Shown here one piece after another: positions 2,350 through 30,943 of a DNA stretch of 64,000 nt. A program made the translations under genes and the position numbers. Numbering within the stretch: the first letter of the stretch is position 1; every line of letters begins with the position of its first letter. The stretch is taken from NCBI GenBank assembly GCA_028279705.1, contig JANQNF010000005.1:2688-66687 (forward strand), given 5' to 3'. Source of the DNA: an archaeon. GTDB taxonomy: Archaea; Aenigmatarchaeota; Aenigmatarchaeia; QMZP01; JAFGSV01. A model generated the notes under the pieces. That model was not told the origin of the DNA, ran no database searches, and saw only the letters and a program-made list of their open reading frames with translations.

Positions 2350-4404
2350 ATGATTTCGGTTGACACGGAAACTACCGGTCTTGACTTTTATCATGGATGC
2401 GCACCGTTCCTCGTATCCATCTGTGATGAGGATCTCCAAGTTACGACATGGCAGTTTCCGGTCAACCCTCGTACTCGCATTCCCAAGGTTACTAAGCGTG
2501 ACCGGGATGAGATAGAATCCTATCTTGACCAGGACAAGGTCTTACAGAATAGTAAGTTTGACGTCCGTGCGTTACAGTCCATAGGCATCTGTATGGATTG
2601 GGACTGGGAACGCACAGAAGACACACTTATAGCAGGACACCTAGTAGCCAGTGGTGAATCCCACGAGTTGGGAAACATGGCGTTGAAGTACCTGGGAGTT
2701 GACATCAAACCGTTGGAGGAAAACCTACGGCAAGAAGTAATTAAGGCCAGAGCTCTAGCCAAGAAAAAGTATCCTGAATGGCGGCAAGCAAAGGAAGGCG
2801 ATCCGATGATGCCAAGCATGAAAGAAACTGCTTGGAAGGGGGATATGTGGTTACCTCAAGCCTTAGCAAACATGGAGGACTTACCCGAGGATCATCCTTG
2901 GTGGCATGTGCTGCCTGAGTACAACAACGGGGACAGTTCGGTAACCCTCAAATTGTGGGAAGTACAAAAAGAAATTCTACAAGAACGTGGGTTATGGGAA
3001 ATCTACCTAGAACGTAAGAAACTACTGAAGACCACCTACGATATGGAATCTATAGGGATTACCATGAACGTAGAACGGTTGAACGAACTCAATGACAGGT
3101 ATAGAGAAGAGAGTACAAAGGCTGAACAACTGTGTTTGAAACTAGCCGACGGGCACATAGATAAACTTCCAAAAGGCGGAACCAGCAAAGCTCTACGTAG
3201 TGTTATCTTCGATCACTTCAAACTACCTGTAGTAGTGAAGTCAAAGAAGACTCAGGAACCCTCAGTCAATAAAGTAGCAATAGAGCAGTGGATAGCTACT
3301 GTTCCAACAACAGAAAAGTCCTTCCATTTTATTAAAAACCTAAGGGACAAACGCAAGCGTGACACAGCCTCAGGTTATATGGAAGGTTACCTCAAAGTAG
3401 GATTACCCCTTTATGGCCCTTGGTACACTCTATTCCCCTACCTCAATATTACCGGGACTGATACCTTACGATTCAGTAGCAGCAATCCAAATGAGCAGAA
3501 TATTAGCAAACAAGAAGGGTTCAACCTCCGATACATTTTTGGTCCGCGCCCTGGAAGAGAGTGGTGGTCCGGCGATTATAAGAACATCGAGTTGCGGTTG
3601 CCAGCCTTCGAGTGCGGCGAAACTGAAATGGTCAACCTGTTCAACAATCCCGGCGAGCCACCCTATTACGGATCCTACCATTTACTTATCTGTGACGTTC
3701 TTCACCCAAAATGGTTCGGGCAACACGGAACAGACTTCAAAAACAAGTTCGCGTCGACGTGGTATCAGTGGACCAAGAATGGCAACTTTGCTGTCCAGTA
3801 TGGAGCCGTTGAATCTTCGGGTACAGCCGACTTGGCCTACCACGTTCCGGGGGCGCAAAGGAAGATTCAAGGGCGGTTCAAAAAGATCGCGCAGTTGAAT
3901 AAGGATATGATAGCTCATGCGGATGCTCACGGATATGTCACCACAATACCTTCCAAGGGTTTTGACCGCGGATACCCGTTACAATGTACACGAACCGAAT
4001 GGGGCAGAGTCAAACCAACTATCCCATTGAACTACCACGTTCAGGGAAGTGCGATGTGGGCTATGAGCTTAGCTATGAATCGATGTGACAACTTCCTAGA
4101 GCAGTGGAACCAGTCCGAGCTAGGGATAGCCAACACCAGCCAGATAATACAAGAACAGATGGAAGATCAAGCTTACTTCATGATTATGCAAATACATGAT
4201 GAGCTGGTCTTTGACTTCCCAGCCAAGCGTAGTAAGAACTGGGATCCTAAGAATCCAAAGGCTGAGCATCTAGGAAATGCACAGTTGGTACGTGAACTCA
4301 AACAACTCATGGAGCTCTCTGGAGAAGATATGAATACTCCTCTACCGGTCGGCTTCGATTATCACCCTGACACGTGGGACGTAGGCTATGGTATCAGTTT
4401 ATGA
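2350..4404 (+). CDS. Family-A (Pol I-type) DNA polymerase with 3'-5' exonuclease domain
   Basis: N-terminal Exo I motif VDTETTGL. Pol A motif B-like K..NGNFAVQYG and motif C QIHDELVFD. 684 aa. Confidence 0.85.
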   Translation: MISVDTETTGLDFYHGCAPFLVSICDEDLQVTTWQFPVNPRTRIPKVTKRDRDEIESYLDQDKVLQNSKFDVRALQSIGICMDWDWERTEDTLIAGHLVASGESHELGNMALKYLGVDIKPLEENLRQEVIKARALAKKKYPEWRQAKEGDPMMPSMKETAWKGDMWLPQALANMEDLPEDHPWWHVLPEYNNGDSSVTLKLWEVQKEILQERGLWEIYLERKKLLKTTYDMESIGITMNVERLNELNDRYREESTKAEQLCLKLADGHIDKLPKGGTSKALRSVIFDHFKLPVVVKSKKTQEPSVNKVAIEQWIATVPTTEKSFHFIKNLRDKRKRDTASGYMEGYLKVGLPLYGPWYTLFPYLNITGTDTLRFSSSNPNEQNISKQEGFNLRYIFGPRPGREWWSGDYKNIELRLPAFECGETEMVNLFNNPGEPPYYGSYHLLICDVLHPKWFGQHGTDFKNKFASTWYQWTKNGNFAVQYGAVESSGTADLAYHVPGAQRKIQGRFKKIAQLNKDMIAHADAHGYVTTIPSKGFDRGYPLQCTRTEWGRVKPTIPLNYHVQGSAMWAMSLAMNRCDNFLEQWNQSELGIANTSQIIQEQMEDQAYFMIMQIHDELVFDFPAKRSKNWDPKNPKAEHLGNAQLVRELKQLMELSGEDMNTPLPVGFDYHPDTWDVGYGISL

Positions 4405-5275
4405 TCTGGTTGAAATGAATGATAACCTTGTTAATGAATTCATCTATTGGGCAAAGGAACGTCACAGCATACACCTTAAAAGGGAAGCTGGTAAACCTAA
4501 GCCGTGGACCAAGGACCCGATACTCCAACGGTACTTCTTCACTAACCCTTACAGGGAGAATGACAAGACTACCGTATGGTTCCGGGAAACAGTACGAGAT
4601 CCAATTGCTGCCAAGCCTCAGGTCTTCTTTTCTACTGTGTGCTTCCGTTGGTTCAACTACATCCCAACAGGACAAGTACTCCATGATCTACAACTTCTGT
4701 ATGCGTGGGATTGTGAATTAGCTATTGCAAAACTGAACGACATCCTACGATCCGGGCGCAAGGTATTCACAGGGGCGTTTACCATCAGCCCTAGCGGAAG
4801 CACCAAGCCAAAGATCCAGCGTGTATGCGAAGACTACATCCAACCAGTATGGGACGACCTGTCAAGCATCGTTGGCCAACTGTACAAGGCCGACACACTG
4901 AAACGCGCATGGCAAGTTGTATCTTCTCTCCCAGGAATGGCTGGCGGAGGATTCATGGCCTATGAAGTAGTTTCAGACCTGCGGTATACTGAGTTCCTAA
5001 GAAACGCTGAAGACATCAATCTGTGGGCTAACCCCGGTCCTGGTGCCAAGCGAGGACTCAACCGTCTAATGATGAGAGAAATCAAAAGCCCAATCAACCA
5101 ACCATTGTGGGAAGACCAGACCCAGGAACTTCTTAAGATCGTTAATAAACGTCTACCCAAAAATATGCCACGGTTTGAGATGCGTGAAATTGAACACAGT
5201 CTGTGTGAGTTTGACAAGTACCTACGGGCGAGAACCAAGTCCGGCAGAATGAAAAGGAAATACGATGGTGTTTAA
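4388..5275 (+). CDS. Hypothetical protein; possible nucleotide/DNA-base modification enzyme (aGPT-Pplase-like, tentative)
   Basis: 295 aa, overlaps the polymerase stop. Motifs ILQRYFFTNPYRENDKTT, VSDLRYT and NPGPGAKRGL recall the thymine hypermodification pyrophosphorylase-like domain. Recognised from memory only. Confidence 0.45.
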   Translation: MVSVYDLVEMNDNLVNEFIYWAKERHSIHLKREAGKPKPWTKDPILQRYFFTNPYRENDKTTVWFRETVRDPIAAKPQVFFSTVCFRWFNYIPTGQVLHDLQLLYAWDCELAIAKLNDILRSGRKVFTGAFTISPSGSTKPKIQRVCEDYIQPVWDDLSSIVGQLYKADTLKRAWQVVSSLPGMAGGGFMAYEVVSDLRYTEFLRNAEDINLWANPGPGAKRGLNRLMMREIKSPINQPLWEDQTQELLKIVNKRLPKNMPRFEMREIEHSLCEFDKYLRARTKSGRMKRKYDGV

Positions 5276-5808: not shown

Positions 5809-6088
5809 AGACCCTGATAACACCGCTTTGCATTTACATTACTTCATAACGCCTACAGCTCCTGCTTGCTTCAAGAGGGATGTAGGTAGGAGATTACCGA
5901 TTGCTCACTTGTTTGGACAGGACGCAAAACTATTGGAGGCAATAGCAAGACATGCTGGAGTGAACAAAATCGTTATCGAACGTACGAACACTCCTCGCCA
6001 GCACATTGATTTGTGTGGAGCTCCTTTACGTAGAGTGCTTGAGGAGTGTGGCGAGGATATAAACAACTACAGGTTGGAGGAGGACTGA
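5756..6088 (+). CDS. Hypothetical protein
   Basis: 110-aa ORF; overlaps its neighbours; stop overlaps the next start. Confidence 0.3.
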   Translation: MKIFRWNQIREAVAYAVEDPDNTALHLHYFITPTAPACFKRDVGRRLPIAHLFGQDAKLLEAIARHAGVNKIVIERTNTPRQHIDLCGAPLRRVLEECGEDINNYRLEED

Positions 6089-7221
6089 TGAAAGTAGCCA
6101 TAGTCAATTGGCCGATTAATGACGTAGGAGGCATCAACACCTACTGCGAAAACATGATAGCAGGGTTTAGAACTTTGGGAGGGTATGAAGTGGATCTAAT
6201 CCACGCCACACCACAACTCAAGTACAACAATGCGAAACATGGTGAACGGGTGAACCAGACTACCAAGCGAAGGTTCACAATCTTGGAAGGTTATCATTTC
6301 AGTTACAACGACCAGCACGTAACCGAAGCTGTAGATGCTTTGAATACTTACGATCTCGTGATATTCTTGCATCCTAGTCCACATCCTACCAAGGCTGTGA
6401 AAGAACATCCATGTCATTTGAATTGGCAAGCCTTATACAATGAGTTGACCGTTCCTGACTTGGTAATCTTCCACGACGCCAATTGGGCGAAGACGAACTC
6501 GTGGTTTGCTGACGTTGCTGACCGGGTAGATGCAGCACTAGGAGCCCAACATATATTCTTCCCAAGTATTGAGCAGTATCCAGCCAACTGCCCAAAGACC
6601 TGGGAATACTTTCCATTGAACTTAGAGCAGATGTTAAGTGACTCAGCAGAGGAGGACAAGGTAGAACAGGGGATTCTAGCTACTCAGTGGTTAAAGTGGA
6701 AGAACCATCACAAGTTCTTACCAGTCATGCCTCAGATCAAATACCCTATCATGGTGTTTGGTAGCGGTATGGAATATCACAACCTAGCCAAGACCCCGGA
6801 GTTCGCTGAGGCTTTCAACATCGACTACACAACAGACAAGGAGTACAACCCAGACTCTCCACACGAATACCATGGATACGTAGACTATGTGTACGTCATG
6901 GTGGAGATGGCTCGGTCTACCTTTAGTATCGATCTGTCAACTAAGGGTTACACGAACATGACCCATTGGGAGCCGATGGCCTGCGAGACCCTTAATTTAA
7001 TCCACGAAGATGTACTTGCTAACGAGTACTGTGAGATCCCAGACGATTGTTGTATGACATTCAACTTTGGGAATGTTGCCGACGTCATCAACGAAACGAT
7101 GGAAAATCCTGACTGGATTGACAAGCGTGTTACCAACGCTTCCAAGTTCATTACTAAGTGTGACAACGTTCAGGTTGTCAGCCGTATCATGTCCTGGTTA
7201 AAGAAAGAAGGTGTTGTATGA
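6088..7221 (+). CDS. GT-B fold glycosyltransferase; candidate DNA (hydroxymethyl-pyrimidine) glucosyltransferase
   Basis: RBS GGAGGAGG then ATG at 6088. The N-terminus MKVAIVNWPINDVGGINTY...GGYEVDLIHA is a typical GT-B Rossmann start and resembles the T4 alpha-glucosyltransferase N-terminus (MRICIFMARGLEGCGVTKF...GHEVTLVYA). Confidence 0.5.
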   Translation: MKVAIVNWPINDVGGINTYCENMIAGFRTLGGYEVDLIHATPQLKYNNAKHGERVNQTTKRRFTILEGYHFSYNDQHVTEAVDALNTYDLVIFLHPSPHPTKAVKEHPCHLNWQALYNELTVPDLVIFHDANWAKTNSWFADVADRVDAALGAQHIFFPSIEQYPANCPKTWEYFPLNLEQMLSDSAEEDKVEQGILATQWLKWKNHHKFLPVMPQIKYPIMVFGSGMEYHNLAKTPEFAEAFNIDYTTDKEYNPDSPHEYHGYVDYVYVMVEMARSTFSIDLSTKGYTNMTHWEPMACETLNLIHEDVLANEYCEIPDDCCMTFNFGNVADVINETMENPDWIDKRVTNASKFITKCDNVQVVSRIMSWLKKEGVV

Positions 7222-7622
7222 CTCACTATCATGTTACAAGCCTAATCCTAGGAGCGATTCTCACTGTTGGGATTTTCACAGGCTGTTGTGAACAGACTAA
7301 GATGGAACGTTCCCTCGAATACGAAGAAGGGATCAAAAGTCACAACACAGGTATGTCACTTCACGAGAATCCTTACAGCGATGCTGTTGGGAGAAAGGAA
7401 CGGGAACATAAAGCTTACTGGACAAACGGTTGGCTGGACGCCGAGCTCGAAGAACAAGAACACGACGAAGAGTACGAGTCAGAAAGAAACGTAGCTATCC
7501 TCGCTACCATACGTTTGAAACGGTTGGAGAAAGCAGAAGAACGTATTGAAGAGTTGGAAGCCCGTATCAACACTATGCAAGCGTTACAGGAGGAGTTCTA
7601 TGCAACGTTCCGTAACCGTTGA
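7218..7622 (+). CDS. Hypothetical protein, possible lipoprotein with C-terminal coiled coil
   Basis: MTHYHVTSLILGAILTVGIFTGCC has a signal-like segment with Cys. C-terminal acidic coiled coil. Confidence 0.45.
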   Translation: MTHYHVTSLILGAILTVGIFTGCCEQTKMERSLEYEEGIKSHNTGMSLHENPYSDAVGRKEREHKAYWTNGWLDAELEEQEHDEEYESERNVAILATIRLKRLEKAEERIEELEARINTMQALQEEFYATFRNR

Positions 7623-7797
7623 TTATATGTACGATGACAACGAGTGTGATCTTTTTGACAAACTCAAAGAAGTATTGGCAAGCATCGGAGTGGAGGTCGA
7701 GATGGTTGACCCCGATCCACCAGATCTGGAATCGTTAACCATGGAATTCACAAACACACTAGTCGAGGACAACCAGCAGATCGAGCCAGTCGGATGA
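7600..7797 (+). CDS. Hypothetical small acidic protein
   Basis: RBS AGGAGG 7 nt upstream of ATG 7600. 65 aa. Stop overlaps the next start. Confidence 0.35.
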   Translation: MQRSVTVDYMYDDNECDLFDKLKEVLASIGVEVEMVDPDPPDLESLTMEFTNTLVEDNQQIEPVG

Positions 7798-8690
7798 GAT
7801 TATTCAACACCCTATCCTTGGAAATCAACGCACAGTGTAATCGCAAGTGCAAGTTCTGTCCTGTAGCTTACAACACTAGACCTGATGAACGGATGGCTAT
7901 CGGGTTGGTCAACAAAGCAGCAGCGGAGCTTGCTCACCTTAACTACAAAGGGAGGATCGAACTCTACATATACAACGAACCGCTCAAGGACAAAACCTAT
8001 CTGCGACAAGTCACAAAGCTGTTGCGCAAGCACGTCCCTAAGTGTACTCTGATGATTGCCACTAACGGTGACTACATCCGGGACTACACAGACATCATGG
8101 AGATGTATGAGTGGGGGATGAACCAAGTCCTCATTAACTGCTACAGTCCTGGTCTGTATGAACGCCGACAAGTATGGTTCAGTGGATTACCTGCTGAAGT
8201 ACGTAGACACAAGAGCGTGTACGACCAAGGCTTCAAAGGCAAGTGCATACAGATGCTAGACAAGTCTTCTCCCCAGAAGTTTGGTACGGGAATCTTTTCC
8301 TTGACAAACCGTGCAGGTAATATAGACCAGTTCTTACCTGTAGTAGAAGAACCTTTGCAGAAGATGTGTGTGCGCCCGTTCAGGTTACTTAACATTAACT
8401 GGCTTGGACAAGCCTTAGTGTGCTGCCAAGATTACCACGCAGACGTTCCTATCGGGAATTTACAGGACAACACATTAGTAGAACTCTGGAATCATCCGGT
8501 GCTCAATACCTACCGAAAGCATTTATCCGAGAAGGACAGAACTTTACCTCTGTGCAACCAGTGCGACTGTCACTCCGGTGCGTATCCGGGAAATGTGGAC
8601 AAGAGTTTTGGAAAACCAGCCAGTCGCCATGAAATTGCTAACATCCATGCGACCAACGTAAGGAGAAGAAATCGTGCATCTAAAGTTTAG
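7794..8690 (+). CDS. Radical SAM enzyme with C-terminal SPASM/twitch-like Cys cluster
   Basis: CNRKCKFC (CxxxCxxC) at residues 15-22. C-terminal CCQDY...CNQCDC cluster. Start overlaps the upstream stop. Confidence 0.7.
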   Translation: MRLFNTLSLEINAQCNRKCKFCPVAYNTRPDERMAIGLVNKAAAELAHLNYKGRIELYIYNEPLKDKTYLRQVTKLLRKHVPKCTLMIATNGDYIRDYTDIMEMYEWGMNQVLINCYSPGLYERRQVWFSGLPAEVRRHKSVYDQGFKGKCIQMLDKSSPQKFGTGIFSLTNRAGNIDQFLPVVEEPLQKMCVRPFRLLNINWLGQALVCCQDYHADVPIGNLQDNTLVELWNHPVLNTYRKHLSEKDRTLPLCNQCDCHSGAYPGNVDKSFGKPASRHEIANIHATNVRRRNRASKV

Positions 8691-9825
8691 AAACGTTAAC
8701 GAAGCTTTTGATTTCATACTCAAGGGAGTCACAGACGGTAGTATTCCAACGATCGATTCAGGGTCTAGAAACGGAGATGTTGTTCAGATCCCTGAAGTAT
8801 TGACGATCACCTACCTACGTCCTTGGGAGCGAGTTCTGTTTAACAGCGGAAGGGATTGCAATCCGTTCTTTCACCTGTACGAAGCTATGTGGATGCTTGC
8901 CGGTCGGGAGGACGTAGCGTCGCTTGAGTACTTCAACAGCCAGATGGCTCAGTACAGTGACGATGGTAAAGTATTCAACGGTGCTTACGGTAACCGATGG
9001 CGCAACTGGAAAGTACCAAGATGGACTCAAGGACATAATATGTCCGATCCGGACCTACTCTATTGGGAAGGAATAGACCAACTAGAAGTCATTGCGAAGA
9101 ATCTGACCCGGGATAATAACAGCCGACGAGAGGTTCTAGAGATGTGGAGCGTTCACAGCGACCTCCTACGCAACCGTAGTAGTAAGGATGTCTGCTGTAA
9201 CCTTGTAGTCACGTTCCAGATCGTTGATGCGTTCGGGGCTAAGAAGTTGGACATGTCCGTGTTCAATCGTAGCAACGATACGATCTGGGGACTGCTCGGT
9301 GCCAACGTAGTACATTTCAGCTTTCTGCACGAGTGGATGGCTTCTATGTGTGGGGTCAAGATGGGCTTGTACAACCAGATCAGTGTCAATGCGCACTTCT
9401 ACGCTGACAAGTTCACACCCGAAAAATGGATTGGGGATACGACGCCGGATTTGTATCTGGATGCTCTTCCAATAAACCTCACACCCCTTATTGAGGATAA
9501 GAACCAGTGGGAGCGGGACGTACTGACGTTCTGTGAAAATCCATACAACTCAGACAACCCTGAACTGCCGTTCACCCGTAGTCTGAGTAAGAAGTTGTTG
9601 TACGACGAACCGTTCTTTACCAAGGTTGCTATTCCTGCTTGTAAAGCATTCCATGCGCACAAGAATCGGAAGTATGAAGATGCTTTCCGGTTTGCTTCAA
9701 CCATCGAATCAACAGATTGGCAGTTCGTGTGCACAGAATGGTTGATGAAGCGGGAAAGATGGTACAAAGAAAGGATCCGTAAGTCCGGCAACCCATACGC
9801 TAAACTTTCACAACAAGATCAATGA
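8674..9825 (+). CDS. Thymidylate synthase-family enzyme, probably a deoxypyrimidylate hydroxymethylase or methylase, with a ~120-aa C-terminal extension
   Basis: FHLYEAMWMLAG, NGAYGNRWRNW and VCCNLVVTFQ align with ThyA motifs ELLWFLKG, GPVYGKQWRAW and PCHAFFQFYV. The conserved substrate Asn is present in GLLGANVV. 383 aa versus ~264 for ThyA. Confidence 0.8.
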   Translation: MHLKFRNVNEAFDFILKGVTDGSIPTIDSGSRNGDVVQIPEVLTITYLRPWERVLFNSGRDCNPFFHLYEAMWMLAGREDVASLEYFNSQMAQYSDDGKVFNGAYGNRWRNWKVPRWTQGHNMSDPDLLYWEGIDQLEVIAKNLTRDNNSRREVLEMWSVHSDLLRNRSSKDVCCNLVVTFQIVDAFGAKKLDMSVFNRSNDTIWGLLGANVVHFSFLHEWMASMCGVKMGLYNQISVNAHFYADKFTPEKWIGDTTPDLYLDALPINLTPLIEDKNQWERDVLTFCENPYNSDNPELPFTRSLSKKLLYDEPFFTKVAIPACKAFHAHKNRKYEDAFRFASTIESTDWQFVCTEWLMKRERWYKERIRKSGNPYAKLSQQDQ

Positions 9826-10060: not shown

Positions 10061-11098
10061 ATGACAACTAGAACCGAACCAGACCTGCGACACCTAGACT
10101 TCCTAGAAAGGGTAGCAGGGCTCGACGTGAACCAAGTTGAAGAGAAGGACCGCAGCTACGGAGGTAGTTGGAAGCGTCGTGGCGGAGTCGGCGTCTTTAT
10201 GATGCTTGCTCGCAAGTGGGACCGGCTTGAAAACATGATGGCCAATCCTCAGGCTCTGGTAGCTGGTCCTAAACATCCAACCAAAGAACAAGGCGAACAC
10301 GAGTGCTTCCTATGGGACAAGTACGATATCATAGGGGCCATAGAATCCCAGATCACTAGAGGTCAAGTTCCTGGTGATGCCCCAGACGGTACGGTCCTGG
10401 CCGAAGTCCGCGACCTGCGCCGTTACCTGTTACTGTTGGAGGCCGAGCTACTCAGCCGCGACCATACTCAAAACGCCAATCCCCATGTCGTTCGAGCTAT
10501 GGAAAGATTAGAAAAGGAAGGCACTGTTGTAGGGGAGGATGCTGTCACCCTGATGCAAAGTCAAGCTGTTGGGAGAAGGGTAGAAGCAGTTCAAGCTTCA
10601 GGATCTAGAACCCATCAGACTGATCATCAATATCGGGTTCAGCAATTCATGGAAAAAGCAGGTCAGGAGATTCCTGACCAACCTACCATCCCTGACTTCG
10701 AAGTACGCAAGCTACGTGCAAGGCTGATCTTCGAAGAAGCAATGGAAACCATTGAGGCGATGGGAATTTCCATACGCCATCACATAGTCCACTCTAATAA
10801 CGAGATTTGGTTGGACTCATTCCATAGCACCTACCGGGTCGAGTTTCTCAATAAGGGGGAATGCGTTATCGAGGACGTTGCCGACGGTTGTGCGGATCTG
10901 TCTGTTGTCAACGAAGGTACGTTACTGGCCTTCGGTATCCGGGACAACCCACTACTACAAGAAGTGGACGAAGCCAACCTACGCAAGTTCCGGGGGGATG
11001 CTCACAGGGACGAAGGGGGTAAGTGGATCAAGCCTTCGGACTGGCAACCACCTAACATCGCCAAAGTATTGGAGGACCAAGGATATGACCCTACCTGA
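10061..11098 (+). CDS. Tandem MazG-like all-alpha NTP pyrophosphohydrolase
   Basis: Two MazG-like segments (SYGGSWKRRGGVGVFMMLARKWDRLE; EVRKLRARLIFEEAMETIEAM...EDVADGCADLSVV with the E..AD..L signature). Confidence 0.55.
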   Translation: MTTRTEPDLRHLDFLERVAGLDVNQVEEKDRSYGGSWKRRGGVGVFMMLARKWDRLENMMANPQALVAGPKHPTKEQGEHECFLWDKYDIIGAIESQITRGQVPGDAPDGTVLAEVRDLRRYLLLLEAELLSRDHTQNANPHVVRAMERLEKEGTVVGEDAVTLMQSQAVGRRVEAVQASGSRTHQTDHQYRVQQFMEKAGQEIPDQPTIPDFEVRKLRARLIFEEAMETIEAMGISIRHHIVHSNNEIWLDSFHSTYRVEFLNKGECVIEDVADGCADLSVVNEGTLLAFGIRDNPLLQEVDEANLRKFRGDAHRDEGGKWIKPSDWQPPNIAKVLEDQGYDPT

Positions 11099-14139: not shown

Positions 14140-14598
14140 ATGGATAGCTTTCACGGTCTTAACGGGTTCAAGTTGGATTACTATCCGGCGTTTCAACCAC
14201 AGCAATATGCAAACTACACCCCTTCCTCAGCCTCATCTAGTGAGTTCTATGAATCGATGGAGAAGGCTAGAAGACGTATGCAAGAGTTGAAAGCAGGTGA
14301 GAGATACTACATTGAGAGCCACTGCTTCATGCTTCTTAATGAATCTACTATGAGATCCTGGCAGCTACGCATCCATCATCTTACACCAGAACCTAGATGT
14401 GCCTGTCCATTTAATTTCCTGAACGAATACGACAGATGGTTCGAGTGGCAGAAGTTGGTTCAGTTTGAAAGGATGAACACCTTGGAAGCAGCAGTTAAGG
14501 TGACCGGAGTTACCAGGATCTGGGTTATCGAACCTCCCAGGTTCGATCCCCTGTCCGTGATGAGACAACCTTTATGGAGCCCTAAGAATGATGACTGA
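14140..14598 (+). CDS. Hypothetical protein
   Basis: 152-aa ORF; ATGA overlap with the next gene. Confidence 0.45.
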   Translation: MDSFHGLNGFKLDYYPAFQPQQYANYTPSSASSSEFYESMEKARRRMQELKAGERYYIESHCFMLLNESTMRSWQLRIHHLTPEPRCACPFNFLNEYDRWFEWQKLVQFERMNTLEAAVKVTGVTRIWVIEPPRFDPLSVMRQPLWSPKNDD

Positions 14599-15082
14599 CT
14601 GTGAAATCCTTGCAGTCACTGGTCACAGACCTCCAAAGCTAGGGGGGTATGATCTTCTCCTATTTGATTGCCTAGTGCGCTTTGCTGTTACAGAACTCAA
14701 GCAAATCCAACCAGAGTACGTCCTTACAGGTATGGCGTTAGGTTGGGACCAAGCAATAGCGGAAGCCTGTGACAGGATTGGTATCCCGTTCATAGCCTGC
14801 TTACCGCACGACAATCCAGGAAGTAACTGGCCAGACCATAGCCGTGAGTACCTAGACCAGTTACTGAACAAAGCACATGACATCTGGTGGTGTCCGGGAG
14901 GACCGTACGAACCACAGAAGATGCAGATACGTAACGAAACAATGGTGGATGAGTGTGACACGTTGCTTGCCCTGTACGACGGAGAGCCACAAGGCGGAAC
15001 TCATAACTGTGTGAACTACGCACAAATGGAAAGCAACTGCCTAATCATCAACTGTTGGGAACGATGGGAACCCTTTATCTAA
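14588..15082 (+). CDS. SLOG-superfamily Rossmann protein (YpsA/DUF1273- or DprA-like)
   Basis: N-terminal ILAVTGHRPPKLGGYD matches the YpsA-type start (vTGyr..eLgif). A glycine-rich turn MALGWDQAIAEA follows. Confidence 0.4.
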   Translation: MMTDCEILAVTGHRPPKLGGYDLLLFDCLVRFAVTELKQIQPEYVLTGMALGWDQAIAEACDRIGIPFIACLPHDNPGSNWPDHSREYLDQLLNKAHDIWWCPGGPYEPQKMQIRNETMVDECDTLLALYDGEPQGGTHNCVNYAQMESNCLIINCWERWEPFI

Positions 15083-15102
15083 TTAACACTGAGGAAATAA
15101 AT

Positions 15103-15552
15103 ATGGGAATGATAACCGTGAGACTACCCGATACCAAGCACGAAGGTATCAAACTGGCAGCGGAGGACGCTGGCCTAAGTATGAATACTTGGTGCGTTCA
15201 AAAACTCTGCCAAGCCGCAGGAAAGTTTGTGCCTCCTGAACCCCAAGAGATCATTCTAGAAGGTGGTCCTCTGCACAACACTCTTCACCAGACCGAAGAC
15301 ATTGTCACTCATCTGGTACTAGACGAACCAGATCACTTGTACCAATTGAGGGCTGATGAAATTGCTAAGATCAGTCCCGTCCCACCGTTACGAAACCAGT
15401 ACACCTACAAAAGAAGTGGAGAACGCAAGCACAGGTATCCAGCAGAAGGTACAAGAGTTCTAACCCCCATTTTCAAATTCATCTCAGTGAACGTTATTAC
15501 CAATGATGCAGATCTTTCCCCACAAAGTAGTGAACAAGATTCACTGCGGTAA
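15103..15552 (+). CDS. Ribbon-helix-helix (HicB/Arc-like) DNA-binding protein with C-terminal extension
   Basis: RBS GAGGAA then ATG 15103. ITVRLPDTKHEGIKLAAEDAGLSMNTWCVQKL is an RHH signature. Confidence 0.5.
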   Translation: MGMITVRLPDTKHEGIKLAAEDAGLSMNTWCVQKLCQAAGKFVPPEPQEIILEGGPLHNTLHQTEDIVTHLVLDEPDHLYQLRADEIAKISPVPPLRNQYTYKRSGERKHRYPAEGTRVLTPIFKFISVNVITNDADLSPQSSEQDSLR

Positions 15553-16363
15553 CTGTGCCCACGTACTCCGTAAGATGGTCCCAGACCAAGTCATTGATCT
15601 CACAGTCACCAGCCCACCGTATGACGATCTCCGTGCTTACGAGGGGTTCAAGTTTGACTGGCGTAGTATCATCAAGCAACTATGGCGAATTACCAAGATC
15701 GGCGGAGTTGTGGTCTGGGTCGTGGCTGATCAAGTAGAAGACGGTAGTGAGACTGGAACCAGTTTCCAACAAGCTATCTTCTTCCAAGCTGTAGGCTTCA
15801 GACTCCACGACACTATGATCTATCGTCGGGCTCCCAGGTTCCCAGACGTTATCCGCTATCCTCAGTGGTTTGAGTATATGTTCGTGTTCAGTAAGGGACC
15901 ACCCAAAACGTTCAATCCTATTTGTGACCGCAAGAACACTACAGCCGGGACTAAGGGAGGCAACAGACGCCGCGATCCTAAGACCGGTGAAGTTGTAGGC
16001 ACAGGCCAAGAGAAGAACGTTCGTAAGGACTACGGAGCACGTGAGAATATATGGACTTACCTAGCAGGTAGTGCCGAGAGTGAAGACCTGGGACATCCAG
16101 CTAAGTTCCCTGATCAGCTTGCTATGGATCACATCCTAAGCTGGTCTGATCCTGGCGACCTTGTCCTAGATCCTATGTGTGGTAGCGGCACGACCTGTGC
16201 TATGGCCAAGAAAGCCGGGCGCGAATACGTAGGTATTGACATTAGTGAGAACTACTGCCAGATTGCTCGTGGTACAGTGGAGTCTCACCAACTAGCTGCC
16301 GAGTTCGAGACCGGCACACCTTCCTCCCAGAGAAAGCCAATAGGCGGAAAAGGATTACTATGA
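15503..16363 (+). CDS. Beta-class DNA methyltransferase (N6-adenine or N4-cytosine)
   Basis: Motif IV DLTVTSPPY precedes motif I DPMCGSGTT (permuted beta-class order). Confidence 0.8.
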   Translation: MMQIFPHKVVNKIHCGNCAHVLRKMVPDQVIDLTVTSPPYDDLRAYEGFKFDWRSIIKQLWRITKIGGVVVWVVADQVEDGSETGTSFQQAIFFQAVGFRLHDTMIYRRAPRFPDVIRYPQWFEYMFVFSKGPPKTFNPICDRKNTTAGTKGGNRRRDPKTGEVVGTGQEKNVRKDYGARENIWTYLAGSAESEDLGHPAKFPDQLAMDHILSWSDPGDLVLDPMCGSGTTCAMAKKAGREYVGIDISENYCQIARGTVESHQLAAEFETGTPSSQRKPIGGKGLL

Positions 16364-18494: not shown

Positions 18495-18722
18495 ATGAAG
18501 TTAAAGAACCCAATAGGTTCCTTGAGGGATACTGAAGATGTTGTTGGTTATATGAGAGGGTTGAGGGACTTGGCTGTTAACATGACCGACAAAGCAGGTA
18601 TCACTATGGATAATGAAGCAGCAAATCAGAAACAGATTGAATGTGGAATCTGTCATTATTTAGATATCATCGCTGTAGGGATGATCACGATAGTAGAAAA
18701 TCTACCTGAGAAGAAGTCCTAA
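18495..18722 (+). CDS. Hypothetical small protein
   Basis: 75 aa; last gene of the rightward block. Confidence 0.45.
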   Translation: MKLKNPIGSLRDTEDVVGYMRGLRDLAVNMTDKAGITMDNEAANQKQIECGICHYLDIIAVGMITIVENLPEKKS

Positions 18723-18723
18723 A

Positions 18724-18741
18724 GGGGGTATAAATACCCCC
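18724..18741. terminator. Hairpin between convergent gene blocks (candidate bidirectional terminator)
   Basis: GGGGGTA TAAA TACCCCC lies between the 18722 stop (+) and the 18759 stop (-). Confidence 0.45.
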
Positions 18742-18758
18742 TCTAGGAATGGCGTGGG

Positions 18759-19154
18759 TTAGGATTGGCTAGGAGCAGGTTCCGGCGTTTCCGGTTGTGT
18801 CTCCTCCGGTTCGTACTTGGTCAGTTTGGAAAGATCAAACCCTGTGACCATAACAGCATTGTCAGGGATGCCATCCCATTCCAATGGTTGATCAACATTG
18901 TAATAAACTTCACCACCAACCTTAGCCATGTGCTGGTTCTTGCACAGCGCTAACGCTCCGCCTTCACCATCGATGGCTTCTTGGAGCGTCTTGAATCCTT
19001 CTGTGTGGTGCCCTTTGCTTTTCCAGCGCTCGGCATCACCTAGCTGGCCAGACGGGGGCGGTGCTTCCCAAAGCAAGATGGGATGGTACGTATCCTGTGC
19101 TTCATTGTGAAGTATTAGGATAACCGGGTTGTAAGGAATTGTCGGTACTATCAT
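18759..19154 (-). CDS. Hypothetical protein
   Basis: 131 aa; end of the leftward block. Confidence 0.5.
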   Translation of the reverse strand: MIVPTIPYNPVILILHNEAQDTYHPILLWEAPPPSGQLGDAERWKSKGHHTEGFKTLQEAIDGEGGALALCKNQHMAKVGGEVYYNVDQPLEWDGIPDNAVMVTGFDLSKLTKYEPEETQPETPEPAPSQS

Positions 19155-19423
19155 TTCAAATCCTTTGCTCTATAAACTTTGCCTTTGATTTCCAACCGTA
19201 CGATAGCCCGAAGGTTCACGTTACGGTACTCTTGGAGGTCTGTATCCCATACGGTTAACAGATCCTTATCTTCAGGATCATAGGGCTGTCCTTGCCCTGT
19301 GACCCCTTCCTTAACACCAAGCTGGCATGACATCCGTCTAAGCCTCCCGTTGGTGCGTTTTCTAAACGTACATACGAAAGGCTCATTACCAGCTTCCTTC
19401 CTGATAAATTCACCTACGTTCAT
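19151..19423 (-). CDS. Hypothetical protein
   Basis: 90 aa; ATGA overlap. Confidence 0.5.
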   Translation of the reverse strand: MNVGEFIRKEAGNEPFVCTFRKRTNGRLRRMSCQLGVKEGVTGQGQPYDPEDKDLLTVWDTDLQEYRNVNLRAIVRLEIKGKVYRAKDLK

Positions 19424-19425
19424 TT

Positions 19426-19884
19426 CTACCCCTTCGTGTACGAAACTGTATTAGAATAGAAATCCTCACTCCACTCCCAAACGTCGCGGACGAAACATTG
19501 GAATTCTGCAAAAGTCAAAGTCATCGTTTCCTCGACTTCCCACTGGGCGATGTCGATTGCCGCGTCGTACTCCTTGGAGTAGTTCCTCGGAACTGGTAAG
19601 TGGATCACTTCGGATTGGATCAACTCAATATAGTCTGAAGTTTTACTCTCCGGATCAAAGTCCTCGAGGTCGAGTTGAACTTTTTGGAAATTCTTCTCCA
19701 TACGGGCAAGAGCTGTCTCCTTGGCTTTCTGGAGTTTCGCCAATGCCTGTTCCTGGTATCCAGCAAGAGCTTCCTCATACTGCTGAATATGTTTCTCCCG
19801 GTTAGACTTCAATGTTTCGAGAAGCCGCTCTCGGTCAACTTTGACTTCACGTTTTTTCTGGTCTTGTCGTGCTTGGTTAGCCAT
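19426..19884 (-). CDS. Hypothetical coiled-coil protein
   Basis: 152 aa; charged, heptad-rich N-terminus. Confidence 0.5.
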   Translation of the reverse strand: MANQARQDQKKREVKVDRERLLETLKSNREKHIQQYEEALAGYQEQALAKLQKAKETALARMEKNFQKVQLDLEDFDPESKTSDYIELIQSEVIHLPVPRNYSKEYDAAIDIAQWEVEETMTLTFAEFQCFVRDVWEWSEDFYSNTVSYTKG

Positions 19885-19896
19885 CTAAATTCTCCT

Positions 19897-20097
19897 TTAT
19901 CCATTGTATAGTTCTTCCAGCCTTGCTTCAATCAGCTTGGCTAACTTGGTTTGTAGGGCAGCATCCTTAGTATCGCCGTCCCGGTGAGCAAGACCAGCCA
20001 GTTCATAGGCTTGATCCCGCTTACGTCTTAGGCGAACTACGTTGGTTGAGTTCTTAATTTGTTCCTCGTCCATACTACCTCCAAATATTACCATCAA
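19897..20097 (-). CDS. Hypothetical small protein
   Basis: 66 aa. Confidence 0.4.
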   Translation of the reverse strand: MMVIFGGSMDEEQIKNSTNVVRLRRKRDQAYELAGLAHRDGDTKDAALQTKLAKLIEARLEELYNG

Positions 20098-20422
20098 GGA
20101 TTTGATTAATTGTTACCGACGGGGCTTCCATTAACTCCATTGTATGACTGGCCAGACTGCCGTCATTGACAATAGAGCTAATGAACTGGGAAAATGAGGT
20201 TTCACCCCCTGCTGTAGCATCCTTGAACTTCTCGTGTAAGTCTTCCAGGATCTCAGCCCAATTAGCAGTGTCCTCGTCATCAAACTCCTTACCACCGTTA
20301 GTCACAAACTTATTTACTTCTTGCACCATTGTTTGTCTTTCCATTACCGTTGTGTTGTGGATTTGTTTTGTTAGACCGAACCGGTCTGTGTGCTGGCCGA
20401 CGTCACGTTCCGCCTGGGACAT
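20075..20422 (-). CDS. Hypothetical protein
   Basis: 115 aa. Confidence 0.45.
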   Translation of the reverse strand: MSQAERDVGQHTDRFGLTKQIHNTTVMERQTMVQEVNKFVTNGGKEFDDEDTANWAEILEDLHEKFKDATAGGETSFSQFISSIVNDGSLASHTMELMEAPSVTINQILDGNIWR

Positions 20423-20675
20423 GGCCTGCTCGTTGTATCTGCTGCTCCGCCAGTACCTCCACTAAGGCGTTGGCTCCTGCCCAAAAACAATTCCATAGGA
20501 CTTCCTTGCCCTCATCGTCAAGGTACGTCAGCCCCTCATCCTTCAGGTACTGCTCGAAGAATGGGCGCAGGTTCCCGCTACCCGTCTTCGGTGGTTGGGG
20601 TTGTTGATTCTTCATTTTCTTTCTCGCTTTCTTGCTGGTCCCGCATCTCCGATTGAACATTTGTAAACTCCTCAA
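20403..20675 (-). CDS. Hypothetical protein (start uncertain; alternative ATG at 20615)
   Basis: 90-aa ORF; overlaps the upstream ORF in another frame. Confidence 0.35.
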   Translation of the reverse strand: MRSLQMFNRRCGTSKKARKKMKNQQPQPPKTGSGNLRPFFEQYLKDEGLTYLDDEGKEVLWNCFWAGANALVEVLAEQQIQRAGHVPGGT

Positions 20676-20859
20676 TTGAACGTTGAACTTTGGCTCTACA
20701 AGCAGCTTCGTATAAGGTCTTACCTAGTACCTCACCAACGAACCCTCGCGAAGCATCAAAGTCAAGCTTATCAGTTAATACGAAGTCAGAGATTATGAGG
20801 CTGAAGTCCCCTTTGTACTTTCTTCGTAACTCTTCTCCACCAATAGTAGACATGGTCAC
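20578..20859 (-). CDS. Hypothetical acidic protein
   Basis: 93 aa. Confidence 0.4.
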   Translation of the reverse strand: MTMSTIGGEELRRKYKGDFSLIISDFVLTDKLDFDASRGFVGEVLGKTLYEAACRAKVQRSIEEFTNVQSEMRDQQESEKENEESTTPTTEDG

Positions 20860-21065
20860 CTCGGTCTCTTGGGTATAGCGTCTTCCTTAGGATAGACCCC
20901 ATACTTTGCGTAAAACTTCTTTCTGTACTTGTCCCTCCACTCTTCGTCTGTTTCCTTGGCATCGTTTTCTTCCATCCTACGCATACCCATAACAGTACCG
21001 TAGACAACACCACAGAAAACACAGAAGAAGAGGAATACACCAATTACCATATACACCAGGAACAT
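20856..21065 (-). CDS. Hypothetical small membrane protein
   Basis: FLVYMVIGVFLFFCVFCGVVYGTV is a single TM segment. ATGA overlap. Confidence 0.4.
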   Translation of the reverse strand: MFLVYMVIGVFLFFCVFCGVVYGTVMGMRRMEENDAKETDEEWRDKYRKKFYAKYGVYPKEDAIPKRPR

Positions 21066-21110
21066 TGTTATCTCCTCATGTAACTGACCAGCATAGCGGT
21101 GAAGATAATA

Positions 21111-21653: not shown

Positions 21654-21656
21654 CAC

Positions 21657-28005: not shown

Positions 28006-28007
28006 AG

Positions 28008-28253: not shown

Positions 28254-28324
28254 TTAGAAAGTATGCGACTGCGCAGCTATTAACAAGTAGTTTACCTCCC
28301 ATATCAAACCACGCCTTCAATTCA

Positions 28325-30907: not shown

Positions 30908-30943
30908 TTACGATCGTTTCAATGGGTGCTTTCTGGGGAGAAG

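What the first reader, a model, noticed from the sequence alone, without database searches (positions are those of the whole stretch)
7794..8690. Radical SAM / SPASM-like enzyme translationally coupled to the TS homolog
A CxxxCxxC cluster near the N-terminus and an extra C-terminal Cys cluster (CCQDY...CNQCDC) suggest auxiliary Fe-S clusters. The stop overlaps the TS-homolog start by 17 nt, implying co-expression and a shared pathway. Radical SAM enzymes are required in some thymidine hypermodification routes, for example in Pseudomonas phage M6-type systems.
Basis: partly seen in the sequence, partly recalled or inferred. Interest (0 to 1): 0.65.

Follow-up and report, generated by a model that had tools for sequence, protein, structure and literature searches.

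The report
BtrN-like radical SAM in phage DNA-glycosylation operon
This is a real radical SAM gene in an uncultured phage, but rather than the known M6-type enzyme it is a relative of the sugar-oxidising enzyme BtrN that always travels with a DNA glycosyltransferase, which suggests that it tailors a sugar placed on 5-hydroxymethyluracil in the phage DNA, a kind of DNA modification not yet described.

Summary
ORF 7794..8690 (298 aa) has CNRKCKFC at residues 15-22 and a C-terminal Cys cluster, and its stop overlaps the GTG start of a thymidylate-synthase homolog by 17 nt.

The enzyme is not SPASM with two auxiliary clusters. Only C-x12-G-x4-C...C-x2-C is conserved, which is a Twitch domain with one auxiliary cluster.

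It is unrelated to the M6 gp53 isomerase. It is a full-length homolog of BtrN, the radical SAM 2-deoxy-scyllo-inosamine dehydrogenase (E 1.8e-22 alone, 7e-38 as a family profile, and the top Foldseek match).

The window has no P-loop 5-hmdU kinase, amino-acid:DNA transferase or PLP enzyme.

The next large gene upstream in the same overlapping gene chain (6088..7221) folds like T4 alpha-glucosyltransferase. In 25 of 25 related loci the radical SAM gene lies within 1 kb of a glycosyltransferase, either this GT-B type or a TAGT type. Most loci also carry a source of 5-hydroxymethylpyrimidine, either a TS homolog or ParB plus TET/JBP.

Best reading: a radical, BtrN-type tailoring step, probably CHOH to C=O, on the sugar destined for or already attached to 5-hmdU.

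The clade is phage-only, has no cultured member, and I found no paper describing it.

The parts
7794..8690 (+). BtrN-like Twitch radical SAM enzyme, 298 aa (the finding)
   Evidence: ORF. Pfam SPASM E 8e-12. BtrN 4M7S E 1.8e-22 for the single sequence and 7e-38 for the family profile. AF2 pLDDT 84.6 and Foldseek top match BtrN at E 1e-16. 126 homologs.
7836..7859 (+). Codons for C15-x3-C19-x2-C22, the ligands of the SAM-binding [4Fe-4S] cluster
   Evidence: Nearly invariant in alignment A1. Aligns to BtrN C16/C20/C23 (PMC9012708).
8367..8564 (+). Twitch (half-SPASM) domain: C192-x12-G205-x4-C210(C211) ... C254-x2-C257, one auxiliary [4Fe-4S] site
   Evidence: These five Cys are invariant in 39 sequences and C259 is not. 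They align to the BtrN auxiliary ligands C169, C188, C232 and C235. The Pfam SPASM match covers aa 192-258.
8674..9825 (+). Thymidylate-synthase homolog, predicted dUMP hydroxymethylase (makes 5-hmdUMP); GTG start overlaps the rSAM stop by 17 nt
   Evidence: Pfam Thymidylat_synt E 1.4e-19 and phrog_5131 E 3e-94. Best phage matches are M6-like TS/dUMP hydroxymethylases at 37% identity.
6088..7221 (+). GT-B glycosyltransferase with the fold of T4 alpha-glucosyltransferase; predicted 5-hmdU DNA glycosyltransferase
   Evidence: No Pfam hit for the window protein alone. Family members hit Glyco_transf_4 and Glyco_trans_1_2. AF2 pLDDT 94.8. Foldseek top eight matches are T4 AGT-DNA complexes, E 4e-13, TM 0.72. 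Conserved next to the rSAM gene in L003, L006, L019 and L027.
4388..5275 (+). HMUDK_hel (formerly aGPT-Pplase1) protein, homolog of M6 gp55; function unknown; no P-loop kinase partner in the window
   Evidence: Pfam PF18723 E 9e-51. tblastn with M6 gp55 gives E 5e-51. M6 gp55 was dispensable in reconstitution (PMC8989533).
7218..7622 (+). 134-aa ORF in the overlapping gene chain; its N-terminus looks like a lipoprotein signal (…GIFTGC); probably not part of the chemistry
   Evidence: No Pfam or PHROG hit. Not conserved in other loci.
7600..7797 (+). 65-aa acidic ORF whose stop overlaps the rSAM start (ATGA)
   Evidence: No family hit.
10061..11098 (+). MazG-like nucleotide pyrophosphohydrolase (predicted dTTP/dUTP clearance for replacing T by hmU)
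   Evidence: Pfam PRA-PH E 1e-6 and phrog_671 E 5e-25. Role inferred by analogy with the dTTPase/dUTPase of hmU phages (PMC13458397).
2350..4404 (+). Family A DNA polymerase at the head of the same co-directional gene block (context)
   Evidence: Pfam DNA_pol_A E 1e-30. The order PolA - HMUDK_hel - GT - rSAM - TS is conserved in L003, L019 and L027.

Best explanation
The gene encodes a phage-specific, BtrN-like radical SAM enzyme with two [4Fe-4S] clusters: the SAM cluster on C15/C19/C22 and one Twitch auxiliary cluster on C192/C210/C254/C257. It is one step of a pathway that glycosylates 5-hydroxymethyl-deoxyuridine in DNA.

Proposed pathway:
1. The TS homolog (8674..9825) makes 5-hmdUMP. With the MazG-like pyrophosphatase, hmU replaces T in phage DNA. 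(Inferred from homology to the M6 family.)
2. The T4-alpha-glucosyltransferase-like GT (6088..7221) puts a sugar on the hydroxymethyl group. (Inferred from fold and context.)
3. The radical SAM enzyme cleaves SAM and the 5'-deoxyadenosyl radical abstracts a hydrogen from a sugar carbon. As in BtrN, an invariant Arg (R173, equivalent to BtrN R152) takes the hydroxyl proton and the auxiliary cluster takes the electron, turning a CHOH into C=O. (Inferred from BtrN homology.)

Whether it acts on the sugar already on DNA or on the nucleotide-sugar donor before transfer is not resolved; I favour the DNA-linked sugar slightly.

Shown: domain architecture, homology, and gene linkage. Inferred: substrate, reaction and order of steps.
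For: - Identity: CX3CX2C plus a Twitch Cys pattern invariant in 39 homologs.
- BtrN is the only strong solved relative. It matches full-length at E 1.8e-22 and 7e-38, and is the Foldseek top match at E 1e-16. Next in structure space are anSME, DesII and SpeY, which all carry out radical oxidation or tailoring of alcohols and sugars.
- The BtrN auxiliary ligands and R152 map onto invariant residues.
- BtrN is a two-electron alcohol-to-ketone dehydrogenase with a Cys4 auxiliary cluster (PMC9012708, PMC10337720).
- Linkage: in 25 of 25 loci of the close clade that have flanking sequence (about 19 after collapsing near-duplicates), a glycosyltransferase lies within 1 kb. It is either the GT-B family, whose model matches T4 AGT, or the TAGT family PF20691.
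- The hydroxymethyl source varies. It is a TS homolog plus HMUDK_hel in about 10 arrangements. It is ParB plus TET/JBP, a T-dioxygenase context (PMC13229309), in about 6. It is a dCMP-type TS homolog with a C5-methylase in L016. The sugar-transfer step is therefore the only constant partner.
- More distant viral relatives (22-28% identity) sit among GT1, GT2, GT11 and GT15 genes and GDP-mannose-dehydratase-type genes. Carbohydrate linkage therefore holds across the wider family.
- In the window the GT, rSAM and TS genes form one chain of overlapping ORFs with no + strand terminator-like site.
Against: - No experiment and no ligand-level evidence exist. The sugar, the carbon attacked and the reaction outcome are all unknown.
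- No aminotransferase or reductase that would use a keto-sugar is encoded in the window. BtrN and SpeY products are normally transaminated (from memory).
- Closely related rSAMs pair with two unrelated GT folds, and these are interspersed in the rSAM tree. This fits action before transfer, or far from the anomeric carbon, as well as action on DNA.
- An extra invariant Cys (C211), as in Cys-dependent radical epimerases, leaves epimerisation open. The CC pair is also present in most non-DNA relatives.
- The protein is no more basic than its non-DNA relatives.
- The AF2 model is poor (pLDDT < 50) for residues 164-188, which contain the NRAGN motif.
- L007/L022 show GT plus rSAM with no hydroxymethyl source in the fetched flanks.
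Confidence: 0.55

Rival explanations
1. Same pathway and substrate class, but the outcome is redox-neutral. The enzyme would be a radical sugar epimerase (or dehydratase/rearrangement enzyme). After H-abstraction, a cysteine thiol returns a hydrogen to the opposite face, converting the attached hexose into a rarer epimer.
For: An additional invariant cysteine (C211) sits next to the auxiliary ligand C210, where BtrN has Phe. The two-gene GT plus rSAM module (L007/L022) needs no downstream enzyme if the product is an epimer. Twitch and SPASM relatives include epimerases: YydG is the second-best sequence hit, and NeoN is another (from memory).
Against: The best and only full-length relative is a dehydrogenase. 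The Arg proposed to deprotonate the hydroxyl is invariant. The CC pair is not specific to the DNA-linked clade.
Confidence: 0.2
2. The enzyme acts on the base, not the sugar. It would oxidise the primary alcohol of 5-hmdU (or 5-hmdC) in DNA to the aldehyde, as anSME does with serine, or otherwise remodel the C5 substituent.
For: It is always found with a source of 5-hydroxymethylpyrimidine. anSME-type alcohol-to-aldehyde oxidation is among the structural relatives. M6 gp53 shows that rSAM enzymes can work at C5 substituents in DNA (PMC8989533).
Against: Oxidising the hydroxymethyl group would remove the acceptor needed by the glycosyltransferase that is present in every locus. Distant relatives are in pure glycan clusters with no DNA-modification genes. 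L007/L022 have a GT but no hydroxymethyl source nearby.
Confidence: 0.1
3. One reading: an M6-type thymidine hypermodification radical SAM that rearranges an amino-acid adduct on thymine.
For: Same type of locus (TS homolog and M6 gp55 homolog). One related locus (L028) does carry AADT and a P-loop kinase upstream.
Against: No sequence similarity to M6 gp53, which is related to spore-photoproduct lyase and has no Twitch domain. The window has no P-loop 5-HMUDK, AADT or PLP enzyme. Even L028 has a TAGT glycosyltransferase directly next to the rSAM gene.
Confidence: 0.03
4. A function unrelated to DNA modification, with only accidental gene linkage. Examples: a peptide (RiPP) maturase typical of SPASM proteins, or a cofactor, queuosine or RNR-activase type housekeeping enzyme.
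For: The Pfam SPASM hit and weak NCBIfam hits to maturases.
Against: All NCBIfam scores are far below their cut-offs (38 against 380 bits and similar). Only one auxiliary cluster site is present. No precursor-peptide or housekeeping context. Linkage to a GT holds in 25 of 25 loci across different genome backbones. The clade is absent from 185,579 cellular species genomes, where the best match is 32% identical.
Confidence: 0.04

Closest known systems
BtrN (Bacillus circulans butirosin pathway; PDB 4M7S/4M7T), radical SAM 2-deoxy-scyllo-inosamine dehydrogenase, founding Twitch enzyme
   Same: Full-length homology and best fold match. N-terminal CX3CX2C at the same position. Four auxiliary-cluster cysteines, the NR(G/A)G arginine and the TNGD motif all align. 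Compact size of about 250-300 aa.
   Different: Only about 22-23% identical. The phage protein has an insertion of about 25 residues before the NRAGN loop and a C-terminal extension of about 40 residues (helix 278-297). It has an extra invariant Cys211. Its context is a phage DNA-modification operon, not an aminoglycoside cluster, and no partner aminotransferase is present. The substrate cannot be DOIA.
M6 gp53, radical SAM glycinyl-thymine isomerase of Pseudomonas phage M6 (Lee et al., NAR 2021/2022, PMC8989533)
   Same: A radical SAM enzyme encoded in a phage 5-hmdU hypermodification locus beside a TS-homolog dUMP hydroxymethylase and an aGPT-Pplase1/HMUDK_hel gene.
   Different: No detectable sequence similarity. 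gp53 is 480 aa, related to spore-photoproduct lyase, and has no Twitch or SPASM domain. It works after a P-loop kinase and an AADT and before a PLP decarboxylase, all of which are absent here.
T4 alpha-/beta-glucosyltransferase systems, base J, and phage TET/TAGT glycosylation clusters (Burke 2021, PMC8256090; Pyle 2024, bioRxiv 10.1101/2023.12.21.572611; T-dioxygenases, PMC13229309)
   Same: A 5-hydroxymethylpyrimidine in DNA is glycosylated by a phage GT. The neighbour gene has the T4 AGT fold, and related loci use TAGT with TET/JBP.
   Different: None of these described systems includes a radical SAM enzyme. The term is absent from the three papers checked. Here an rSAM gene is an obligate neighbour of the GT, which implies a tailored sugar.
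SpeY, DesII and anSME (radical SAM sugar, cyclitol and alcohol oxidising or tailoring enzymes)
   Same: Same fold neighbourhood, with radical H-abstraction next to a hydroxyl or amino group. SpeY is also a Twitch dehydrogenase.
   Different: Much weaker similarity (SpeY profile E 0.018). anSME has a full SPASM domain with two auxiliary clusters. DesII has none.

Membership tests
Radical SAM superfamily | CX3CX2C motif ligating the SAM-binding [4Fe-4S] cluster near the N-terminus | tested here: met
   C15-NRK-C19-KF-C22. Nearly invariant in 39 homologs. Aligns to BtrN C16/C20/C23.
Radical SAM superfamily | Pfam PF04055 score above the gathering threshold | tested here: inconclusive
   The window protein scores 23.7 bits against a cut-off of 29.5. 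Most homologs carry a precomputed PF04055 hit.
Radical SAM superfamily | Partial TIM-barrel core fold | tested here: met
   AF2 model with pLDDT 84.6 and pTM 0.85. All top-50 Foldseek matches but one are radical SAM enzymes.
Radical SAM superfamily | Reductive cleavage of SAM to 5'-deoxyadenosine | not testable with these tools
   Needs anaerobic biochemistry.
SPASM domain (two auxiliary clusters) | Seven-Cys motif CX9-15GX4C ... CX2CX5CX3C ... C | tested here: not met
   Only C192-x12-G205-x4-C210 and C254-x2-C257 are conserved. There is no Cys at +5/+9 after C257, C259 is variable and no later Cys exists. The Pfam SPASM model still matches because it covers the shared half.
Twitch subclass / BtrN-like dehydrogenases | Single auxiliary [4Fe-4S] site with four Cys, equivalent to BtrN C169/C188/C232/C235 | tested here: met
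   C192/C210/C254/C257 align to these positions and are invariant.
Twitch subclass / BtrN-like dehydrogenases | Significant full-length sequence and fold similarity to BtrN | tested here: met
   E 1.8e-22. Profile E 7e-38 over positions 2-267. Foldseek E 1.4e-16, TM 0.83 normalised to the target.
Twitch subclass / BtrN-like dehydrogenases | Active-site Arg (BtrN R152) near the substrate hydroxyl | tested here: met
   Invariant R173 in the NRAGN motif aligns to BtrN N151-R152. The catalytic role of R152 is recalled from Goldman et al. 2013, which could not be read here.
Twitch subclass / BtrN-like dehydrogenases | Two-electron oxidation of a secondary alcohol on a sugar or cyclitol | not testable with these tools
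   Inferred only.
BtrN orthologs (aminoglycoside 2-deoxystreptamine pathway) | Context of 2-DOI synthase and aminotransferase genes | tested here: not met
   None in the window. The context is phage replication and DNA modification.
M6 gp53-type glycinyl-thymine isomerase | Sequence similarity to gp53 (spore-photoproduct-lyase-like rSAM) | tested here: not met
   BLASTP E = 2.5.
M6 gp53-type glycinyl-thymine isomerase | Co-occurrence with P-loop 5-HMUDK, AADT (aGPT-Pplase2) and a PLP decarboxylase | tested here: not met
   tblastn of M6 gp51, gp52, gp53 and gp54 against the whole window gives no hit better than E 0.38.
Housekeeping rSAM (QueE, anaerobic RNR activase, MoaA) | NCBIfam or Pfam equivalog match | tested here: not met
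   No such hit. The best NCBIfam scores are 38 bits or less against cut-offs of 170-400.
Phage 5-hmdU (thymidine) hypermodification loci | dUMP hydroxymethylase (TS homolog with Asn at the uracil-reading position) and aGPT-Pplase1/HMUDK_hel | tested here: met
DNA hydroxymethylpyrimidine glycosyltransferase (T4 AGT-like), for the partner gene 6088..7221 | GT-B fold closest to T4 alpha-glucosyltransferase | tested here: met
   AF2 pLDDT 94.8. Foldseek ranks 1-8 are T4 AGT, E 4e-13 to 2e-11, TM about 0.7. Sequence identity is only 12-14%, and the activity is untested.

The most novel reading that the evidence does not exclude
A phage-only clade of BtrN-like radical SAM enzymes works on DNA itself. 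After a DNA glycosyltransferase puts a hexose on 5-hydroxymethyluracil (or hydroxymethylcytosine), the enzyme oxidises or epimerises that sugar by radical chemistry, creating a previously unknown keto- or rare-sugar DNA base. This would be the first radical carbohydrate tailoring on a DNA polymer and only the second radical SAM family shown to install a DNA hypermodification.
Probability: 0.3. Interest if true: 0.8.

Novelty: new variant of a known kind. Interest (0 to 1): 0.68.

Why it matters
Phage DNA hypermodifications decide whether restriction enzymes, CRISPR nucleases and type IV systems can cut a phage. They have also supplied tools such as the T4 glucosyltransferases used for 5hmC mapping.

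Known sugar modifications of phage DNA are made by glycosyltransferases alone or with nucleotide-sugar enzymes. The only radical SAM enzyme so far tied to a DNA hypermodification is M6 gp53.

A conserved GT plus BtrN-like rSAM module has three notable properties. It is spread over at least three routes to hydroxymethylpyrimidine and two GT folds. It is found only in uncultured phages. It predicts a new class of tailored-sugar bases.

The prediction is directly testable with two or three recombinant proteins and hmU-DNA. It would also widen the known substrate range of Twitch radical SAM dehydrogenases from small cyclitols to nucleic-acid glycoconjugates or their donors.

Tried and rejected
- Megablast of 4300-11200 against 50,697 phage records gave no match. 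tblastn of the GT and of PolA against the same records also gave no match. No cultured relative therefore exists to borrow annotation from.
- Direct comparison with M6 gp53 showed no similarity. A search of the window for the M6 P-loop kinase, AADT, PLP enzyme and Nmad5 found none.
- For the GT, single-sequence Pfam, NCBIfam and PHROG searches and a PDB sequence-profile search gave nothing. It was resolved only by scanning family members and by AF2 plus Foldseek.
- I compared pI and net charge of the DNA-linked clade with the wider BtrN-like family, to look for a DNA-binding signature. Both are basic (median pI 8.9 against 9.1), so this is uninformative.
- Promoter and terminator scans were at or below shuffle expectation. 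The only use was to show that there is no + strand terminator-like site between 2000 and 13143.
- I looked for an aminotransferase, reductase or nucleotide-sugar gene elsewhere in the window and found none.
- A conserved 302-aa gene between rSAM and TAGT in the TET/JBP loci could not be assigned.
- Literature searches for radical SAM with 5mYOX, SPASM with 5-hmdU, TAGT with radical SAM, and BtrN with phage all returned zero papers.
- Goldman 2013 (BtrN structure) and Iyer 2013 (TAGT/aGPT-Pplase prediction) are not held. Statements about the role of BtrN R152 and about NeoN therefore rest on memory.
- The Campylobacter phage 'BtrN protein' hits (23% identity) lie in a cluster of five rSAM genes with no GT or TS, which is a different system.
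Full report
**1. The observation**

The ORF is real and sits where stated: 7794..8690, + strand, ATG start, 298 aa. It was called identically on the 74.8-kb source contig.

Residues 15-22 read C-NRK-C-KF-C. The C-terminal third carries C192, C210, C211, C254, C257 and C259.

The stop (TAG, 8688-8690) overlaps by 17 nt the GTG start (8674) of a 383-aa thymidylate-synthase homolog. That start is preceded by AAGGAG at 8660-8665. Its N-terminus aligns with those of homologs.

The overlap is the last link of a chain of overlapping genes:
- GT 6088-7221
- 134-aa ORF 7218-7622
- 65-aa ORF 7600-7797
- rSAM 7794-8690
- TS 8674-9825

No + strand terminator-like site occurs between 2000 and 13143.

The gene has 126 homologs at 40-62% identity over more than 90% of its length, mostly on phage-sized metagenomic contigs. 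It is therefore under selection and not a chance ORF.

**2. What kind of radical SAM enzyme it is**

Pfam gives SPASM (45.7 bits, above cut-off) and a sub-threshold Radical_SAM hit. NCBIfam gives only very weak hits to assorted maturases.

In an alignment of 39 family members (A1) the invariant cysteines are the CX3CX2C triad plus C192, C210, C211, C254 and C257. C259 varies.

The pattern C192-x12-G205-x4-C210 ... C254-x2-C257 is the first half of the SPASM motif. The second half (x5-C-x3-C ... C) is missing. This is a Twitch domain with one auxiliary [4Fe-4S] cluster, not a two-cluster SPASM domain.

A profile of the family matches one solved protein strongly: BtrN, E 7e-38 over positions 2-267. 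The window protein alone gives E 1.8e-22. The next hit, YydG, is at 5e-4.

An AF2 model (pLDDT 84.6, pTM 0.85) has BtrN as its top Foldseek match (E 1.4e-16). It is followed by CteB, anSME, BlsE, viperins, DesII and SpeY.

From the printed alignments, the BtrN residues map as follows:
- C16/C20/C23 map to C15/C19/C22.
- C169, C188, C232 and C235 map to C192, C210, C254 and C257.
- N151-R152 map to the invariant N172-R173 of the 'NRAGN' motif.

[quoted passage not shown] Its Cys4-ligated auxiliary cluster is thought to accept the electron (PMC9012708, PMC10337720). The proposed base role of R152 is from memory, because the structure paper is not held.

The phage protein differs from BtrN in three ways:
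- an insertion before the NRAGN loop
- an extra invariant Cys211
- a C-terminal extension of about 40 residues

**3. It is not the M6 enzyme**

The TS homolog's best cultured relatives are indeed the M6/YuA-type dUMP hydroxymethylases, at 37% identity. The 295-aa gene at 4388..5275 is a homolog of M6 gp55 (HMUDK_hel, formerly aGPT-Pplase1).

M6 gp53 is different. It is a 480-aa rSAM related to spore-photoproduct lyase, and it isomerises N-alpha-glycinyl-thymine (PMC8989533). It shows no similarity to the window protein (E 2.5).

The proteins gp53 depends on are the P-loop 5-hmdU kinase gp54, the amino-acid:DNA transferase gp51 and the PLP decarboxylase gp52. None has a counterpart anywhere in the 64-kb window.

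**4. The surroundings**

The window is a phage genome. It has no tRNAs and about 48% GC, with structural genes downstream.

The + strand block reads as follows:
- PolA (2350..4404)
- HMUDK_hel (4388..5275)
- small ORFs
- a 377-aa protein (6088..7221)
- two small ORFs
- rSAM
- TS homolog
- MazG-like pyrophosphatase (10061..11098)
- primase-helicase
- an N6/N4 DNA methylase

The 377-aa protein has no Pfam hit on its own. Its family (46 homologs) shares at least 16 contig lengths with the rSAM family list. Members hit Glyco_transf_4 and Glyco_trans_1_2.

The AF2 model of the 377-aa protein (pLDDT 94.8) is a GT-B fold. Its eight best PDB matches are all T4 alpha-glucosyltransferase, several in complex with HMU-containing DNA (E 4e-13, TM 0.72). 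This is very probably a DNA 5-hydroxymethylpyrimidine glycosyltransferase.

The TS homolog carries Asn at the position of E. coli N177, like M6 gp58 and unlike the Asp of T4 dCMP hydroxymethylase.

**5. Related loci**

I fetched loci through exact-protein look-ups and a scan of IMG/VR. I then searched their ORFs with sequences and profiles of the candidate partners and checked key neighbours with Pfam.

In all 25 loci of the close clade that have flanking DNA (about 19 after collapsing near-duplicates), a glycosyltransferase lies within 1 kb of the rSAM gene. It is either the AGT-like GT-B family or a TAGT (PF20691, TET-associated glycosyltransferase) family member.

The rest of the locus varies:
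- TS homolog plus HMUDK_hel (window, L003, L009, L011, L019, L020, L023-27)
- The same plus AADT and P-loop kinase (L028)
- ParB plus TET/JBP, the context of the recently described phage T-dioxygenases (PMC13229309), in L004, L012-15 and L017-18
- A TS homolog with Asp at the N177 position, beside a C5-cytosine methylase and a dCMP deaminase (L016)
- GT plus rSAM alone, within the flanks available (L007/L022)

A neighbour-joining tree of the rSAMs interleaves GT-B-linked and TAGT-linked members. The GT fold has therefore been swapped repeatedly while the rSAM stayed.

Direct adjacency to TS, as in the window, recurs only in L027 and L028.

More distant viral relatives (22-28% identity) have no DNA-modification neighbours. 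They sit among GT1, GT2, GT11 and GT15 genes and GDP-mannose-dehydratase/epimerase genes.

A scan of one genome from each of 185,579 bacterial and archaeal species found no relative above 32% identity. The few I looked at appear to lie in glycan loci, judged by N-terminal sequence only and not verified.

An exhaustive HMM search shows a large BtrN-like family (834 50%-identity clusters at E <= 1e-30). The phage clade occupies the top of the list, with roughly 40 clusters.

**6. Mechanism**

The one constant partner of this rSAM is a sugar transferase, across three ways of making the hydroxymethyl acceptor. Its nearest characterised relatives oxidise or tailor hydroxyl-bearing carbons of sugars and cyclitols.

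The best-supported model is therefore a radical tailoring step on the sugar of glycosyl-5-hmdU:
- SAM cleavage at the C15/C19/C22 cluster
- H-abstraction from a sugar CH(OH)
- deprotonation by R173
- electron transfer to the Twitch cluster
- a keto-sugar as product

Shown: the architecture, the homology and the gene linkage. Inferred: the substrate, the reaction and the order of steps.

Two points stay open.

First, timing. The interchangeability of a (probably retaining) AGT-like GT-B with TAGT enzymes fits two cases equally well. One is action on the nucleotide-sugar before transfer. The other is action on a part of the DNA-linked sugar remote from the anomeric carbon.

Second, outcome. No enzyme that would use a ketone is encoded, and there is an extra invariant cysteine. 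Epimerisation is therefore a serious rival.

Oxidation of the hydroxymethyl group itself is unlikely, because it would destroy the acceptor of the GT. M6-type chemistry, RiPP maturation and housekeeping roles are essentially excluded.

**7. Comparison with what is known, and novelty**

The protein works like BtrN and belongs to the Twitch, BtrN-like branch of radical SAM enzymes. It is not a BtrN ortholog: the identity is 22-23%, the context is different, and DOIA cannot be the substrate.

The locus belongs to the known class of phage 5-hydroxymethylpyrimidine hypermodification. It resembles the glycosylation systems of T4, base J and the TET/TAGT phages.

None of the papers on those systems that I could search mentions a radical SAM component. 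Four targeted full-text searches found nothing. No cultured phage carries the module.

I rate it a new variant of a known kind. It is a conserved GT plus Twitch-rSAM module that predicts an undescribed tailored-sugar DNA base.

**8. Verdict**

- Observation: confirmed.
The class of enzyme and the general pathway theme are right. The subfamily, the cluster count, the model system and the true partner are wrong.
- Confidence in the sugar-tailoring model: 0.55.
- Interest: 0.68.

Noticed in passing
window 4388..5275: An HMUDK_hel / aGPT-Pplase1 gene (M6 gp55 homolog) is present without any P-loop 5-hmdU kinase or AADT in 64 kb. In related loci it accompanies every dUMP-type TS homolog but none of the TET/JBP loci. 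Its function is unknown; M6 gp55 was dispensable in vitro (PMC8989533). Here it cannot be a kinase accessory.
   Followed up: partly
window 7218..7622: A 134-aa ORF is embedded by overlaps between the GT and the rSAM gene. It has a lipoprotein-like N-terminus (LILGAILTVGIFTGC) and a coiled-coil-looking C-terminus, no family hit, and is not conserved in related loci. It may be a moron or a superinfection-exclusion gene inside the modification operon.
   Followed up: partly
L012:2599-3507 (also L013, L014, L015, L017): A conserved gene of about 302 aa sits between the rSAM and the TAGT gene in the ParB + TET/JBP loci. It has no Pfam, PHROG or PDB sequence match and may be a further tailoring enzyme of this pathway.
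   Followed up: partly
L016:1120-6033: Here the rSAM + TAGT pair sits with a C5-cytosine DNA methylase, a P-loop kinase, a dCMP deaminase and a TS homolog that has Asp at the N177 position (like T4 dCMP hydroxymethylase). This suggests the module also serves a cytosine-based modification.
   Followed up: partly
L007:8929-13930 (= L022; contig binned as 'Candidatus Asgardarchaeum' MAG): The family A DNA polymerase is split by inteins and carries an N-terminal UDG-like domain, next to TAGT + rSAM. The 61.8-kb contig looks like a phage mis-binned into an archaeal MAG.
   Followed up: no
L144 (Campylobacter phage CPt10, NC_027996.1 73874-79429): The weak 'BtrN protein' hits in Firehammervirus phages lie in a run of five radical SAM genes plus a putative amidinotransferase. 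This is a separate, unexplained rSAM cluster.
   Followed up: no
window 18700..33000: A block of minus-strand genes, with GC skew switching sign at about 20 kb and 32 kb. It includes a UvrD-like helicase (23309..25168). Most other ORFs there have no family hit.
   Followed up: no
window 14588..16363 and L002:2165-2368: YpsA-like, HicB-like and N6/N4 DNA methyltransferase genes lie downstream of the primase. A phage-encoded CsrA homolog lies just upstream of the window start on the source contig.
   Followed up: no
L010:8219-9052, L011:697-1779, L016:1-1017: A lysine/alanine-rich, histone-H1-like repeat protein (KPAAK / PKAT repeats) is conserved immediately upstream of the TAGT + rSAM pair in three loci. 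It may be a DNA-binding protein.
   Followed up: no
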